DNA from: Owenia fusiformis
Taxonomy: Eukaryota
Length of the DNA stretch: 64,000 nucleotides
Direction: 5' to 3'
NCBI GenBank assembly: GCA_903813345.2
Contig: CAIIXF020000001.1
Coordinates: forward strand, 17,174,001 to 17,238,000
The position numbers and the translations under genes are program-made. The notes beneath the pieces are model-generated. The model did not search any database. It was not told the origin of the DNA and was given only the letters and a program-made list of their open reading frames with translations. Each line of letters starts with the position of its first letter. Within the stretch, counting starts at the first letter, position 1. Shown here one piece after another: positions 5,819 through 16,636 of this stretch.

Positions 5819-6019
5819 GCTGGCCAGACTGCCCTCATGTTGGCTGTGAGTCATGGACGAACAGACACTGTGTCACTCCTGATGCAATGTGGTGCTGACA
5901 TCAACGCTAAAGATGAAGATGGCTCTACTGCATTGATGTGTGCCAGCGAACATGGCCACGCTGAAATCGTCAAATTGTTGCTTGCTCACCCTCATTGTGA
6001 CGCTACCCTAACTGATAAT
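5819..6019 (+). CDS. KANK: KANK-like ankyrin-repeat exon
   Basis: atctag|GCT GGC CAG...GAT AAT|gtaagt, 201 nt; [14 protein letters not shown]...[34 protein letters not shown]. Confidence 0.95.
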
Positions 6020-7720
6020 GTAAGTGTGCCCAAGCCATCTTTGTCACAACTTCTTGAAATGCATGGTCAATCTGAGAATGATCTAATCCAGTCTGATTCT
6101 AATACTTCTCTAACAGTTAATCCTTCATGTACAGAAAGTGCAATTCCTAATGAGCATGCTAGAGAACCTAACATAGTAATCAATGGCACCATGCTTAATA
6201 GCACTCTTAACACTCAAGAAGTAGAAAATATAGCTGATACAGAATATAATATTTCTTCAAATGAATCAAACAGTGACTTTGCTGTTGCTGTCGGTGAATC
6301 TGAGAGCAATGTCATTATTGATGAATCTGAAAATCATGATAAGTTGTCGCGTGAAGAGTTCAATGGGCTTAGGGAGTCTGGGGTATTGCCCCATTCTCAG
6401 GAGTATCATATCAGTCTTAGCCCTGAACAGAGATCACATATACTCGATTCGGGTCATCATAAGCTCAAAGGTAATCAGGAAACTAAAGTGACTGAATCCA
6501 AAAATGAAAAGGATCAAGCTGATGCAATTTTGGATGACACTGACACTCCAAACCTGTTATCTTTGGAAGAGAATGATAACCAAAACCTGGAAAGAAATAT
6601 TGCATTTGAACCAACAGATCAAACTGATATGTTGAGTGAAGACTTTGAACTGACAATGGATCCAGAAGAGGAGATGGACTATACTGATGAAGAAAATCAT
6701 CCTGATGCAAGTAGTAATGTATCAGTAGAATATGAAGAGATGGATAGTGGATTTATTACACTTGAAACATATGATGACACTAATGAAACACATATGGACC
6801 AAGATGAAGACCCATTTGATGCAGATCCATATGCAAAGGTCACAAAGAAAGCATACAAAGACTTAACTTATACTCTAGAAGACACCTTTGAAGAGAGTAC
6901 TGGAACGCCTGACTCTGATTCAAGTAGCAGATCAAGTGGATCATATGAGTTTGAACAAATTGAGGAGTTCATTAATCAATGTGAAGAGAACCACCATGAA
7001 CTTGATACTATTCTAGAAGATGAGGTCCTTACTGTTGAAGATGATCTCACCACTGAGGTGGATGAAACTGAAGGTCAAGTTGAAGACCTACATACACATG
7101 ATGTGCCATACGGAATAAGAGCTAATGAAACTTTGAATGAATATGAAGACATCAATGACGCTGATAGCGATGATGAAACAAATGATATAGCAGATCTTAG
7201 TGATAGTGCTGATGTTTATGCAGATGCTTTAGATGTCAAGTTTGAGGAGACTGATTTCCATTTTGGTCTGGCTGACCTTCAAGCAGAATATGAACAGGTT
7301 AGAGGTGATGTTGAAAAATATAAAGATGTCCAGGAAATAATTGAGAAAGATGATGATAAAGAAGACACATCTAAAAAGAAGACAGATGTGTGTATCATTG
7401 AGAGTTTTGAGGAAACAAGTCCACAAACTCCAAAAATTGATCAAAATGGATCAACTGAAGAAGGCAGCGTTAACGTGACGAGAGCAAAAATAATCAAAAG
7501 CAGACCAGCTACCTCAAATCCCCATAGAGAAAATCCTCCACCCATAAACTCCTCTTCAATGGTGTCTGTGTTTCCCGAAAGTTTTGACGTTCCAACCCTG
7601 GGCCCCCATAATCCTGCAACAACCACAATGTTTCTGTATTTTCTGTTGTACATTTTCTTTCTCTTGAATCTTTATTATTCAATCATGGACGAGATCTACT
7701 CATTCTTTTCAACAGATTGA
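6020..7720 (+). CDS. Putative alternative terminal extension of KANK (read-through of the 6020 donor): 566-aa acidic region with a C-terminal hydrophobic segment
   Basis: Frame stays open for 1701 nt past the gtaagt donor in AT-rich DNA; D/E/S/T-rich; ends [36 protein letters not shown] at 7829-7834. Confidence 0.7.
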
Positions 7721-10700
7721 TAAGATCAACACTCTATTTCATTTTTCATTTTTAGTATTTTGACTTCTAATGTAAATATATATAGCTGTATACCTTGATT
7801 TGTATATTTTACCCTTTACCCTCTGCTCAATAAAAGTAAAAATTAATTGTCTCTGTGAACTAATCAAAAGTAATTTGTGTTATTAAAGGGTCTTGTTTAG
7901 GTAACATGCGAAATGCTGGGATATGTTGCTTATACATATGTGCTGGTGCATTTACGTTGATGGATTTTAATACAATATATTTGAGATGAAAAATTAAGAT
8001 AAAATTAAGTCTGTTTTCTGTGTATATTTCTCCTCATAAATATTCCACACTCTGTGCCGAAAACAAGATCCTTTAAAATTTTATTTGTAAGATAAGTATT
8101 TATTTTTATATGTAGCTTTAAGAATACTTTATTATTTTATTCATATACAGTTGATTAATTTATTAATAATTTTGCCAAAGATGAATTTTCACATTTTAGT
8201 TTCTGTGATTTTTAATTTGTCTCACAATTTAACATTACAATGCTCGAGTGTAAAGTATATTTTTGTAAGAAAATTGCAGTGGAGTAGAATCTGTAACTGT
8301 TATTGTTAAGTAAGATTATAAGCTAGATTATCAATGTAAAATCTGGATTACACCAGTCAAGCAGCAGAGTTTGTGTCAGGTCTGATAAAAGAAAGAACAA
8401 CAAAATGAATTGTTGATAATTTTTGATTTAACTGAAAAATGTAGAATGCTCCGAGCAAAAAAGCTTTAATTAGTGTTATAATTATGGCAGCATATAACTC
8501 AAATAATATCATAATTATATTCATGTATTGATTAAACTGATTAATTAATTAATTTGATATGGTATGTCAACTGATGTTGTATAGAAATTCAAACACTTAA
8601 CAGCATGCTTGCGTCCTTGTAGATCATACATGAGTGTGTAAATATGTTCATCAAATTTGGTACAAAAATTGTATTACTACTTGTTAATATAATTTTGTAT
8701 GCAAAACAAGGTGAAAAATTGAATTAGTGATTATATAGTTTAGTTTTGAAGTGACCTAAGAATGTTCTAATGTTTCACCTGTAATAAGTTGACTCAAAAT
8801 ACATGTGAAAAATTAAAACATTTGTTCTACATATCAACTCTTAAAGGCTTGTGGCACACATTTTCCAAAAAGTCAAAAGTTAGTTAAAATGCAGTATAGC
8901 TATTGTCTGTCTGTCTGTCTGTCTGTAAGCAATAATATATGTTTTATGTCATAACCAAAGATTATAGTGCTTAGTAATGTAGAAATCTATTCTATGTACT
9001 AACCATATTTTGAGCAATGCAAGTAGAAATTACGAATCATATCATCAACAAGGAGTGGAGACATGTCAATGTACTAGTAAGTTTTGCTTCGCATTTGTTT
9101 GCAGTGACCCTTGTGTACAGTTTTACTCTGAATTTAAAAACATTTTTTGAGATTATTTTGTGATTATTAAAAATGGCGTTCCATTTCTAGTTGTTTTTCT
9201 GATGTATGCTTTAGATTGGTACAATAAGTTTTGGATTGATTTTATTTTGATGGTACACCATTCTCATTGATAATTTTAAGATATTTGTGTGGAAATGAAC
9301 TTTAGCGTTATTGGTTAACTGAAGAACATGTGTACACGAAATTGGTTGCATTTGATGAAGTTTATTTTGAAATGTTTTGTGTGTTATTTCAATTTATAGG
9401 TAATTTATGTTACCCTTCTATGATTTATAAAGATACATGCCTTATAAATCAAACATATATTGGGTACTTAAAGCAGATGGTTTTCTGTGGTATGATGCTG
9501 CACCATCTTTTGAACATTAAAGGTGATATTTCTGCATTTCATGTTGGAAAAAGTTTCATTTTTGTAACTTGAATGCTGAAATTAGAGAAAAGTGTTACAA
9601 AAAACAAAAGTTAGATGTTGATATGGGGAAATTATGTTCACTTGGCACTTATTGGGCATAATTCCCAAACTTGGAACTTTAACTTGCCTTACTGTATCAC
9701 CCTGTATGCCACTCATGCTAAAGATTAGCAAAGTGACTAAGTGGTCATCTGCCCTGACTTATGGACACTCTGTACCTGTACCACCCTGTAATCTGTGTAC
9801 GCTGCTCTTGTGACATCCTGTATTTGGTGACATGCTGTAATCTGACCCTGTAAGTGTCCTTAGCCTGATTTATAGCTGCTGCTGCACATATGCTGAAGGT
9901 TACCTGGGAAAACACTTCCTCCATTGGTTAGGGTCTTCAGTGCAATAGTTCAAGTGCAGGGGTTCATGGGAAAATCCTCCATTGAAGGGAAGTGTTAAAA
10001 AGGAGGGCCCAGTAAATATGGTTACTGGAACATCCTGCTTGGCTTGCCTGGGAGCTAGGCATGTAATAGTATCTGAAATAAGCTATTTATATTTTCTTTG
10101 TTTAAATCTTTTGTACTATTCCCTTTTCTGTTATGGGTAAAGATATAGGAATAAACTGTTATAAAGTTTATATATTGGATATGTACAGATAGGCCTTTAT
10201 TATAGTTCTTTCACAATTATTGTATTTGTCATAATTGGACTCTGATCGATTTAGATGCTAAGAACTGGAGGTATTGTACATAAGGCATATCAAAGAGGCA
10301 TTTGGAAATAAAATCTTTAACAATAAGGTGTGCATGCAATTTAATTTTGTTTCATCGTTCATTTTTTTACATTAATTTTTCACAATGCTGTTGTTATCTG
10401 ATTTTCAAGACTGCTTGTTGATAAGATCTTCACAGTTTGCTTTGTAGTGTTGCTATATTTTGTTTTTGTTTTCACTTTTTTCTTCTCATCATGGATACCT
10501 GTCATGCCATTATTATAGATAAAGACTGCTGTAGCTCAGATTAAGCATTTTTTTGTATTCCACCATATAACTTGTTTTTCAGTGTTTAATAATTTAATAA
10601 TTCTCATGTTGCATTTGTTGATTTCATCAACAGGAAAGCTTAGAATTTCAATTCAGTTACAAGAAAGGGTGAAATTTCAAGTAATGTAATGTGATTGTAT

Positions 10701-10912
10701 GAACAATGTTATTGTATTTCTAACTACATGTATTGTATGTCCAGTGCGCAGTAAAAATGAAGGTTGGGTGATTGGCCCATATATTATTAATAAGTCATTG
10801 CTATCAGGGTCAATCATCAAATACTTCAGCCCTACCCTAGAATATATAATATGAATACCTTCAAACCTTAACGATTATTTCTTGAAACTGTGTAGACTGA
10901 CTGTTCCTTTTA

Positions 10913-15691: not shown

Positions 15692-15726
15692 GCCTTCAAA
15701 AGACGCAAGATGCCACCTTCTCCCAG
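15692..15726 (+). CDS. KANK: KANK-like penultimate mini-exon (short basic tail)
   Basis: ttttcactttag|GCC TTC AAA AGA CGC AAG ATG CCA CCT TCT CCC AG|gtatgc = AFKRRKMPPSP(S); phase 0 in, phase 2 out. Confidence 0.7.
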
Positions 15727-16620
15727 GTATGCATGTACTCATCATTATGAAATAATACAACATATATATTGCACATAAAGCCTCATGGTCGTGATGTTTT
15801 TGAAGGTCTTAGATATAATTCCCAACTTTGATATGATATTATTTCTGTGATTGAGAAAATAAGATGGTTTCATATATGAATTGAATGTGCTATATAAAAT
15901 GTAAAAGGAGAATCCTTAATGATCCTTATTCAGCACATTTAGTGTACTCGTATCATCTTGTATGTGATGCAACATTTGACATGTTATACACTGTAGAACT
16001 AGAATATTTCATACTGTGCATGTATATTCAATAAATATGCTATCCCATGAGGTTTTATCAAATGCAATATTACTAACTCAAATTCATTAGCATAGTTTAT
16101 ATTCTTAACTGTGATTTATAGAATTGAGAGTCATTTGAAATAGAATACATCTAAAGTAGAATAAATGTTGCACGTGCATTTTGCAAATAATAGAAAAAAA
16201 GATTCTAATTTTGAGATTATTTGGTTTGATTTGATTTGATAATACTGTGATGCATTAATCTGTGTGTAATCTTGTCTCCTACATCCTTTGTCCTCAAATC
16301 ATTCTGGAAATGTGACCAATGTGATCAAGTACTTAATTACTTTCTGTCCTCATTGGTTTCTCCTCTTTCTAAATTAAAGACTTCCCTCCCCTCCTATTCT
16401 GTAACAATACTAATGAGTCACATCTTGATCCGTCAAGATATTTCTTATGACTGAAGGAATACACTGTTTTAACAGTATGAATGAGAACCATCTAGTACAT
16501 GTAGTAAGCTTGCATTATCAAAATGGTTTTACAGGACAAAGATATGCATTTTATTTGCATTTCATTTTGTACATTTTGTATTGAGTCATGAAATATGATT
16601 GTTATATTCATCTCTTTCAG

Positions 16621-16636
16621 CCCAATTAGGAGGTAG
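16621..16636 (+). CDS. KANK: KANK-like final coding exon (short isoform)
   Basis: tctctttcag|C CCA ATT AGG AGG TAG completes ...PSPSPIRR*; phase fits the 15692..15726 exon. Confidence 0.65.

What the first reader, a model, noticed from the sequence alone, without database searches (positions are those of the whole stretch)
5819..16636. KANK with a switchable set of very different C-termini
Seen: after the ankyrin exons there are three phase-compatible endings. (A) Read-through of the 6020 donor into 566 acidic residues plus a hydrophobic tail, with AATAAA at 7829. (B) Splicing 11198 to 11903 into a 280-aa Ser/Gly FG-repeat exon, with AATAAA at 12812. (C) Splicing 11198 to 15692 to 16621, giving AFKRRKMPPSPSPIRR*. 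Established: characterised KANKs (talin-binding KN motif, KIF21A-binding ankyrin domain) end shortly after the last ankyrin repeat, like form C. Inference: alternative last exons or intronic polyadenylation could make one adhesion/microtubule adaptor soluble, membrane-anchored or self-associating. I do not know this arrangement from described KANKs.
Basis: partly seen in the sequence, partly recalled or inferred. Interest (0 to 1): 0.82.

Follow-up and report, generated by a model that had tools for sequence, protein, structure and literature searches.

The report
Annelid KANK gene with alternative tails
The end of the KANK adhesion-adaptor gene of the annelid Owenia fusiformis normally makes the short, conserved tail, but two long species-specific coding stretches sit in its last introns and are transcribed at low level, so unusual extra protein endings are possible though not yet proven.

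Summary
In detail: all three phase-compatible endings are at the stated coordinates. The window is the 3' end of the Owenia fusiformis KANK gene: a public 2150-aa model (P0085) with a KN motif is 100% identical over the ankyrin exon 5819-6019. Form C is the main mRNA. Junctions 6019>11101, 11198>15692 and 15726>16621 have 27-42 reads in each of two raw RNA runs. Its basic SPSPxRR end matches the 63 other-species KANKs compared. Tail A is a real coding frame: it is the longest open frame of the window, 18 of 34 listed polymorphisms are synonymous (P=0.00135), and there are no indels in 2,220 contig letters. It has no relative in 1.84 billion proteins. Its RNA is about 5% of exon depth. A link to KANK exons and use of AATAAA 7829 are not shown; one contig runs past that signal and another splices 9076>11101. 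Tail B follows 11198 directly in the public partial model, but that junction was not among the joints listed, and unspliced contigs cross both intron ends. "Switchable" endings are partly supported: minor, lineage-specific, function untested.

The parts
4260..4347 (+). KANK coding exon (P0085 residues about 1855-1883)
   Evidence: tblastn 100% over 29 aa; AG at 4258-4259 and GT at 4348-4349; read ends at 4921 carry this exon's last 30 letters (table 7)
4922..5071 (+). KANK coding exon (pre-ankyrin helix and start of the ankyrin domain)
   Evidence: joint 5071>5281 with 20 and 20 reads in X13 and X14
5281..5493 (+). KANK ankyrin exon
   Evidence: joint 5491>5817 (cut +2, i.e. 5493>5819) with 24 and 22 reads
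5819..6019 (+). KANK ankyrin exon (two repeats); its donor at 6020 is the choice point for form A
   Evidence: 100% identical to P0085 2005-2071; joint 6019>11100/11101 with 27 and 34 reads and contig depth 1505 and 1478
6020..7720 (+). Tail A: 566-codon extension of the exon frame plus stop; acidic, predicted disordered, with a C-terminal hydrophobic helix
   Evidence: 18 of 34 SNPs synonymous, P=0.00135. 0 gaps in 2,220 contig letters; contig depth 49-85 against 870-1370 in the exon bins; raw depth 0-1.5 against 15-19. 0 homologues
7829..7834 (+). AATAAA 109 nt after the tail A stop; use not shown
   Evidence: X2 contig 7577-8158 runs through it (table 8)
9077..9082 (+). GTAAGT alternative donor joined to the 11101 acceptor in one run
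   Evidence: joint 9076>11100, GT..AG, X2 contig depth 59.5; 0 in X1, X13 and X14; sequence
11101..11198 (+). Last KANK ankyrin repeat exon; its donor at 11199 is the choice point between B and C
   Evidence: 100% to P0085 2072-2104; lies inside the solved KANK1 ankyrin domain
11903..12745 (+). Tail B: 280-codon Ser/Gly-rich frame plus stop, with a nonapeptide repeat at 11980-12372
   Evidence: P0085 continues from 11198 into its first 46 residues. Contig depth 75-250, with one bin at 1.8 in X2; raw depth 0.4-1.6. 4 other letters and 0 gaps in 805 contig letters
12812..12817 (+). AATAAA 67 nt after the tail B stop; use not shown
   Evidence: X1 contig 12494-12938 runs through it
15692..15726 (+). 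Canonical penultimate coding exon (AFKRRKMPPSP)
   Evidence: joint 11197>15691 (cut +1) with 36 and 27 reads and X2 depth 1206; sequence
16621..18700 (+). Canonical last exon: CDS 16621-16636 (SPIRR, stop), then a 3' UTR that runs at least to the end of the stretch laid
   Evidence: joint 15723>16618 (cut +3) with 42 and 37 reads; raw depth 23-63 up to 18700

Best explanation
This is the 3' end of the single KANK orthologue of the annelid Owenia fusiformis. The default mRNA splices 6019>11101>11198>15692>15726>16621 and gives the ancestral short, basic SPSPxRR ending (form C). The two introns that flank the last ankyrin-repeat exon each hold a long lineage-specific coding stretch in phase with the exon before it. 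When the 6020 donor is not used, the exon frame runs on into tail A. The protein would then lose the last ankyrin repeat and gain about 530 acidic, disordered residues and a C-terminal hydrophobic helix of tail-anchor type. When the 11198 donor pairs with the acceptor at 11902/11903 instead of 15691/15692, the complete ankyrin domain is followed by tail B, a Ser/Gly-rich low-complexity region. Both are minor products, a few percent in the four runs laid. Shown: the anatomy, the dominance of form C, coding constraint on A, sense-strand RNA over A and B, and form B in the public model. Inferred: that A is translated as a KANK fusion, that the intronic AATAAA signals are used, and any membrane anchoring or self-association.
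For: Identity: P0085 (named Owenia fusiformis by its source, 2150 aa) is 100% identical over the 5819-6019 exon, and its printed C-terminus matches the other exon translations. KN motif 42.9 bits against a cut-off of 26. Ankyrin domain against PDB KANK1 5ybj_A, E=1.9e-92. Form C: 27/34, 36/27 and 42/37 junction reads in X13/X14 plus contigs of depth 1200-1500; its tail carries the conserved SPSPxRR end. Tail A coding: P(open) about 1.5e-20. 18 of 34 listed SNPs are synonymous against 9.1 expected, P=0.00135, and only 4 and 8 in the other two frames. 45 substitutions but 0 gap letters in 2,220 letters of three contigs, against 64 substitutions and 40 gap letters in 3,073 letters of six mostly intronic contigs (table 8; the two contigs that straddle the ORF end, 7577-8158 and 7598-7910, were left out of both classes). 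RNA: contig depth 49-85 over A and 75-250 over B (one B bin in X2 at 1.8), against 1-3 in the deep-intron bins 9370-10770. All raw reads over A and B have the same mate orientation as KANK exon reads. Continuity: X1 contig 6002-6354 crosses 6019/6020 unspliced at depth 38.6, close to the depth inside A. Tail B: the public model joins 11198 to 11903, and that annotation was built from RNA-seq, Trinity/StringTie/Mikado, Augustus with hints and PASA (PMC9977687, methods passage). B shows 0.5% other letters against 2.1% in introns. Tail A end: the only confident element of the AlphaFold model is helix 532-564, with 10-residue block pLDDT of 74, 93 and 91.
Against: A and B are weak in every run laid. 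Raw depth is 0-1.5 (A) and 0.4-1.6 (B) against 15-19 in exons, and other intron bins reach 0.9. There were no raw reads at all in 6101-6567 in either run. No 11198>11903 joint is among the 15 listed. Contigs cross 11198/11199 (11187-11469, 11182-11645) and 11902/11903 (11605-12009) unspliced; retention of that intron would end the frame after 10 codons and make B a 3' UTR. The contig across 6019/6020 has only 18 exon letters, so a start inside the exon is not excluded, and an in-frame ATG lies at 6059. No read evidence for cleavage after 7829 or 12812; contigs run through both signals. In X2 the 9076>11101 joint (depth 59.5) equals the depth over A, so that RNA carries the A stop more than 1.3 kb before further junctions and could be an unproductive by-product. 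Depth in 7969-9369 (16-52) is not far below that over A. No annotated protein holds tail A, although the annotation used many stages and tissues. Form A breaks a domain that 63 of 63 other-species KANKs compared keep whole. The hydrophobic end is encoded by T-rich DNA and could be a by-product of composition. The SNP test uses only the 34 rows that the tool chose to print (450 more hidden).
Confidence: 0.5

Rival explanations
1. Tail A and/or tail B belong to separate same-strand transcripts nested in KANK introns, each with its own promoter (A starting at or near the ATG at 6059; B with an unseen first exon in 11199-11902). Phase compatibility with KANK exons would then be coincidence.
For: An in-frame ATG at 6059 has a purine at -3, and only 13 open codons separate it from the exon. 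By my estimate the chance of being in phase and open over that distance is about 0.13 (one third times 0.39, computed by hand from the stop frequency). The X1 contig over the boundary starts at 6002, not further back. There are no raw reads in 6101-6567 but about 15 reads' worth of depth in 6568-7968. Constraint on A fits an independent gene equally well.
Against: The A frame is closed exactly at the exon's acceptor (stop TAG at 5816-5818) and open from there on. Depth across 6019/6020 (38.6) is close to that inside A (49-63 in X1), not to deep-intron background (1-3). B begins at a strong acceptor with no ATG until about residue 86 and no signal peptide-like start. The public model joins B to KANK. 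No separate gene model for A exists. No cluster of read starts was reported in A or B (table 6), though depth was too low for one.
Confidence: 0.2
2. The RNA over A and B is splicing noise: partly retained introns and cryptic-site intermediates such as 9076>11101. The open frames are not translated as KANK endings in any meaningful amount, and form B in the database is an annotation artefact.
For: The level is low and similar to neighbouring retained-intron bins (7969-9369 at 16-52; 11238-11704 at 41-52). Contigs are unspliced at all four boundaries. There is the 9076>11101 joint, no poly(A) evidence, and no listed B junction. P0085 is flagged partial and ends inside the tandem repeat. Neither tail was found in other KANKs.
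Against: Noise does not explain a 566-codon open frame with excess synonymous change and no indels. It also does not explain the fourfold lower polymorphism of B than of introns, or B depth 2-5 times that of the intron before it. Raw-read depth over A is a lower bound: the reads laid there carry 2-6 further differences per 151 letters, close to the 95% cut-off (table 3).
Confidence: 0.25
3. The two long frames are chance open frames in AT-rich intron DNA.
For: Part of B is a tandem repeat that is also open in a second frame.
Against: P about 1.5e-20 (A) and 1.6e-10 (B). They are the longest and third longest frames of the window. A shows frame-specific synonymous excess.
Confidence: 0.02

Closest known systems
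KANK family (vertebrate KANK1-4, Drosophila Kank, C. elegans VAB-19): KN motif, coiled coil, C-terminal ankyrin-repeat domain
   Same: KN motif above the Pfam cut-off. The ankyrin domain aligns end to end with the solved human KANK1 domain (5ybj_A, E=1.9e-92) and is 63-70% identical to most mollusc, brachiopod, nemertean and vertebrate KANKs listed. Form C ends in the same basic SPSPxRR tail. The architecture statement is taken from a passage of PMC8368038.
   Different: The Owenia model is much longer (2150 aa or more, against about 1350 in vertebrates). Two long extra coding stretches lie in the last two introns. None of the 63 other-species KANKs compared has more than 94 residues after the last repeat, and none ends before it. 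The fly and worm names are recalled and come from no call.
Alternative last exons and intronic polyadenylation that swap a protein's C-terminus (textbook case: secreted versus membrane IgM heavy chain; recalled, from no call)
   Same: A composite terminal exon (A: donor skipped, frame runs on, AATAAA after the stop) and a skipped terminal exon (B: own acceptor, stop, AATAAA) lie upstream of the canonical last exons. One ending would add a membrane-spanning helix.
   Different: Use of the intronic poly(A) signals is not shown here, and contigs run through both. Part of the read-through RNA rejoins the gene at 9076>11101.
Tail-anchored membrane proteins (one transmembrane helix close to the C-terminus, inserted post-translationally; recalled definition)
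   Same: Tail A has a single hydrophobic stretch at residues 537-556 of 566, 10 residues from the end. It is predicted as the only confident helix.
   Different: No membrane test and no homologue. The helix is rich in Phe and Tyr, with moderate mean hydropathy (1.86), and is encoded by T-rich DNA. A full search of the library for 'KANK' with 'tail-anchored' (listing of 8 of 95 seen) gave only yeast mitophagy and membrane-targeting papers, and none of the 8 listed concerns KANK proteins.
FG-type and Ser/Gly-rich low-complexity regions
   Same: Nonapeptide SSGSSS(F/L)GQ repeated about 15 times; 47% Ser.
   Different: Only 7 FG dipeptides, no nucleoporin or other domain, and no usable Atlas neighbour. 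Self-association is untested.

Membership tests
KANK family | N-terminal KN motif | tested here: met
   PF12075 at residues 332-362 of P0085, 42.9 bits against cut-off 26. This part of the gene lies outside the window.
KANK family | C-terminal KANK-type ankyrin-repeat domain | tested here: met
   P0085 1855-2099 aligns to chain residues 7-251 of 253 of PDB 5ybj_A (KANK1), E=1.9e-92. The window exons encode it.
KANK family | Central coiled coil (liprin-beta binding) | not tested
   Lies upstream of the window; not analysed.
KANK family | Short basic Ser/Pro-rich end after the last repeat | tested here: met
   Form C, AFKRRKMPPSPSPIRR*, against e.g. GTPRLGRKTSPSPTRRSKFD in vertebrate KANK1 and SPSPTRR in amphioxus; junction reads. 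Forms A and B do not have it.
KANK family | Binding of talin and KIF21A | not testable with these tools
   Biochemical property.
Alternative last exon / intronic polyadenylation isoforms | mRNA that joins upstream exons to the alternative terminal exon | tested here: inconclusive
   A: a contig crosses 6019/6020 with only 18 exon letters. B: the junction is present in public model P0085 but not among the 15 joints listed (9 hidden).
Alternative last exon / intronic polyadenylation isoforms | Cleavage and polyadenylation at the intronic site | tested here: inconclusive
   AATAAA at 7829 and 12812. No end cluster or poly(A) loose end was listed, and contigs 7577-8158 and 12494-12938 run through them. 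Depth was too low to judge.
Tail-anchored membrane protein (form A) | Single hydrophobic helix within about 30 residues of the C-terminus | tested here: met
   Residues 537-556 of 566, mean hydropathy 1.86, next best window 0.33; helix 532-564 with block pLDDT 74-93.
Tail-anchored membrane protein (form A) | Membrane insertion with a cytosolic N-terminal part | not testable with these tools
   Needs a cell experiment.
FG-repeat cohesive domain (form B) | Many FG motifs in a disordered, uncharged spacer | tested here: inconclusive
   7 FG in 280 residues, as many LG variants, 47% Ser. No family match.

The most novel reading that the evidence does not exclude
Owenia has built on its one KANK gene a three-way C-terminal module switch that is not found in any of the 63 other-species KANKs compared. 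One product is the ordinary soluble adaptor. A second has its last ankyrin repeat replaced by a long acidic spacer and a tail anchor, which would fix the talin/liprin platform to a membrane and probably release the KN-ankyrin self-inhibition. A third carries a Ser/Gly/FG low-complexity tail that could drive condensation. Both extra modules are young, orphan coding sequences kept by selection.
Probability: 0.25. Interest if true: 0.6.

Novelty: new variant of a known kind. Interest (0 to 1): 0.4.

Why it matters
[quoted passage not shown] Their ankyrin domain binds KIF21A and, according to the abstract of a 2026 preprint (10.64898/2026.06.09.731086), also the protein's own KN domain. A natural isoform that cuts this domain and adds a membrane anchor, or adds a low-complexity tail, would be a ready-made experiment on how the location and self-inhibition of KANK matter. 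It would also be a clear case of orphan coding sequence recruited as an alternative last exon. Two facts limit this: the extra forms are minor in the data at hand, and they have so far been found only in this one species. A practical point: the only public protein model found for this gene ends in tail B, is partial, and lacks the canonical, dominant C-terminus.

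Tried and rejected
1. The run search listed no holder on record as RNA. The contig runs X1 and X2 are RNA only by the tool's guess, though they hold spliced junction contigs.
2. HMMER of tail A against 1.84 billion representatives: 0 hits at E<=0.001.
3. Pfam on tails A and B: no family at E<=1.
4. ESM Atlas for A and B: no usable hit.
5. The word-index search with exon plus tail A among longer proteins was swamped by generic ankyrin proteins; its only useful row was P0085.
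6. The search among shorter proteins for transcript-derived fragments that cross the A, B or C junctions found no Owenia fragment. The KANK fragments of other species that I inspected (9) all have short tails.
7. No whole genome is held for this window, so paralogues of A or B could not be sought. Within the window neither has a second copy (tblastn).
8. AlphaFold of tail A had mean pLDDT 43.7, too low for a fold search, so none was run.
9. Earlier findings of this scan: nothing on this genome or sequence.
10. Literature: 'KANK' with alternative polyadenylation, isoform and transmembrane, and 'KANK' with 'tail-anchored', gave nothing relevant in the listings seen. Supplements of PMC9977687 (gene models, expression tables) could not be seen and may hold stage-specific expression for this gene.
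11. I considered tail A as an in-frame insertion using a donor inside the ORF. No such joint was listed.
12. I considered chance ORFs and rejected them.

Full report
WHAT IS THERE. The window is AT-rich animal DNA (31-40% G+C). Reading stop to stop in the standard code gives a chain of ankyrin-repeat exons on the + strand. A public protein, P0085, which its source names 'unnamed protein product, partial [Owenia fusiformis]' (2150 aa), is 100% identical to the translation of 5819-6019, and its printed C-terminus matches the other exon translations. tblastn plus the splice sites give the KANK exons in the window as 4260-4347, 4922-5071, 5281-5493, 5819-6019 and 11101-11198. P0085 has a KN motif above Pfam's cut-off (42.9 against 26 bits). 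Its residues 1855-2099 align with the solved ankyrin domain of human KANK1 (5ybj_A, E=1.9e-92). Most mollusc, brachiopod, nemertean, amphioxus and vertebrate KANKs listed are 63-70% identical over this part. So the gene is a KANK orthologue, and the window holds its last 300 or so codons.

THE OBSERVATION.
(A) The frame of exon 5819-6019 runs through the GTAAGT donor at 6020 for 566 more codons to TGA at 7718-7720, with AATAAA at 7829.
(B) Exon 11101-11198 ends in phase 0. A 280-codon frame starts directly behind a pyrimidine tract and AG at 11902, with AATAAA at 12812.
(C) Exons 15692-15726 and 16621-16636 give AFKRRKMPPSPSPIRR*.
Tail A has 138 acidic against 33 basic residues and one hydrophobic stretch, residues 537-556 of 566. 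Tail B is 47% Ser and 15% Gly, with a 27-nt unit repeated 14.8 times. The two frames are the longest and third longest stop-free frames of the whole window. With the stop frequency of the neighbouring intron their chance probabilities are about 1.5e-20 and 1.6e-10. The second figure flatters B, because part of it is a repeat that is also open in another frame.

WHICH ENDING IS USED. I could lay reads once: two sets of assembled contigs (X1, X2; RNA by the tool's guess, but they contain spliced junction contigs) and two raw stranded RNA-seq runs (X13, X14).
- The canonical junctions are strong in both raw runs: 6019>11101 (27 and 34 reads), 11198>15692 (36 and 27), and 15726>16621 (42 and 37). 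The matching contigs have depth 1200-1500.
- Raw depth is 15-19 in the ankyrin exon bins and 23-63 in the 3' UTR after 16636. It is 0-1.5 over tail A, 0.4-1.6 over tail B, and 0-0.9 in other intron bins.
- Contig depth is 870-1370 in the three exon bins. It is 49-85 over A, 16-52 in 7969-9369, 1-3 in 9370-10770, 41-52 in the intron before B, and 75-250 over B (one bin in X2 at 1.8).
Form C is therefore the main product, and A and B are at most a few percent in these samples. All raw reads over A and B have the mate orientation of the KANK exon reads, so they are sense-strand RNA.
Form C is also the ancestral ending. Among the stored proteins at least 55% identical to the last two exons, 63 come from other species. 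All 63 keep the last repeat, and they carry 0-94 residues after the aligned end, typically about 20, with a basic stretch and SPSPxRR or a variant. Nine further KANK fragments that I inspected look the same.

IS TAIL A REAL CODING SEQUENCE? Yes, very probably.
- Length: see above.
- Polymorphisms: of the 34 polymorphisms the tool listed inside 6020-7717, 18 are synonymous (codon positions 6:9:19). I kept each change type and placed it at random on the same base within the ORF. This gives 9.1 synonymous on average, and 18 or more in 0.135% of 20,000 trials. Read in the other two frames, the same SNPs give 4 and 8 synonymous.
- Indels: three contigs covering 2,220 letters of A differ from the window at 45 letters but have no gap. 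Six mostly intronic contigs (3,073 letters) have 64 differences and 40 gap letters (table 8). I left out the two contigs that straddle the ORF end. One of these, 7598-7910, has 7 gap letters whose position I cannot see.
- Caveat: only the rows the tool chose to print could be used (450 hidden).
Tail A has no relative. HMMER against 1.84 billion representative proteins found nothing at E<=0.001, Pfam found nothing, and the Atlas gave no usable hit. The Owenia KANK model is in the sibling collection, so the blank also suggests that no deposited model, in Owenia or elsewhere, contains tail A. AlphaFold without an alignment predicts disorder (mean pLDDT 43.7), apart from one confident helix at 532-564.

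IS TAIL A JOINED TO KANK? Open.
For:
- The frame is closed by TAG exactly at the exon's acceptor and open from there, and no acceptor is needed.
- The X1 contig 6002-6354 crosses the donor unspliced at depth 38.6. This is close to the depth inside A (49-63) and far above deep-intron background (1-3).
Against:
- An in-frame ATG lies at 6059.
- Neither raw run has a read in 6101-6567. However, the reads laid in A carry 2-6 further differences per 151 letters, so the 95% filter probably removes many.
The proposed poly(A) site was not confirmed. X2 contig 7577-8158 runs through it. X2 also has a GT..AG joint 9076>11101 at depth 59.5, equal to its depth over A, from a consensus GTAAGT donor at 9077. 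In that run the RNA that carries A seems to be a 3.3-kb exon extension that rejoins the gene. It would still encode form A, but with its stop far upstream of three junctions. X1 lacks this joint and drops from 85 to 16 after 7968, which fits some termination near 7850.

IS TAIL B JOINED TO KANK? The public model P0085 goes from ...NYRSKGSP straight into QTSSSSVNQQ... and ends, flagged partial, 46 residues into B, inside the tandem repeat. According to the methods passage of the genome paper, the annotation merged STAR/StringTie and Trinity evidence with Mikado, Augustus with hints, and PASA (PMC9977687). The junction therefore probably had read support, but I cannot see that. In my four runs the junction is not among the 15 joints listed (9 more were hidden). 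Contigs cross both ends of intron 11199-11902 unspliced. If that intron is retained, the frame stops after 10 codons. In favour of a real exon: depth over B is 2-5 times that of the intron before it, and B shows 4 differences and no gap in 805 contig letters (0.5%, against 2.1% in introns).

MECHANISM. The simplest reading is two splice choices around the last ankyrin exon: donor 6020 used or skipped, and donor 11199 paired with acceptor 11902 or 15691. Form A would lack the last repeat of a domain that is solved as one unit. According to the abstract of a 2026 preprint, that domain also binds the KN domain. Form A would thus be a different kind of KANK, not merely a re-addressed one. Membrane anchoring (A) and self-association (B) are inference from composition only.

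VERDICT. This is a lineage-specific variant of a known gene family and a known mechanism, with one well-supported new fact: an orphan, constrained 566-codon frame that continues a KANK exon. Interest is moderate.

Noticed in passing
window 13302-14163: A near-perfect inverted repeat lies in the KANK intron between tail B and the canonical exons: arms of 426 nt, 95% complementary, 10 nt apart. RNA depth is very high on both strands (raw 18-58, contigs 15,000-33,000). Many loose ends have low agreement, and joints 13299>14166/14167 remove the element. It looks like a multi-copy foldback element that can form a long hairpin RNA.
   Followed up: partly
window 9077-9082: A consensus GTAAGT donor deep in the intron is spliced to the 11101 acceptor in one run (depth 59.5). 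It defines a 3.3-kb exon extension or an unannotated exon ending at 9076.
   Followed up: partly
P0085 (public model) against window 15692-16636: The only public protein model found for this gene ends, partial, in tail B. It lacks the canonical C-terminus that dominates the RNA data.
   Followed up: yes
window 53513-54043 and 55031-56068, minus strand: Two exons of an organic anion transporter (OATP, PF03137; E=6.7e-29 and 5e-50).
   Followed up: partly
window 32918-33748, minus strand: A 277-aa open frame with a Neurensin/TMEM74 domain (PF14927, E=5.6e-25).
   Followed up: partly
window 10771-11237: Contig depth in this bin (7626 and 5017) is several times that of other KANK exon bins. Many raw reads end loosely at 11018 with low agreement. 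A repeated element probably lies just upstream of the last ankyrin exon.
   Followed up: no
window 25409-25958, both strands: Overlapping open frames of 128-176 aa over a Cys/Tyr/His-rich tandem repeat (YHGNKLQATCYTCNNKP...); nature unknown.
   Followed up: no
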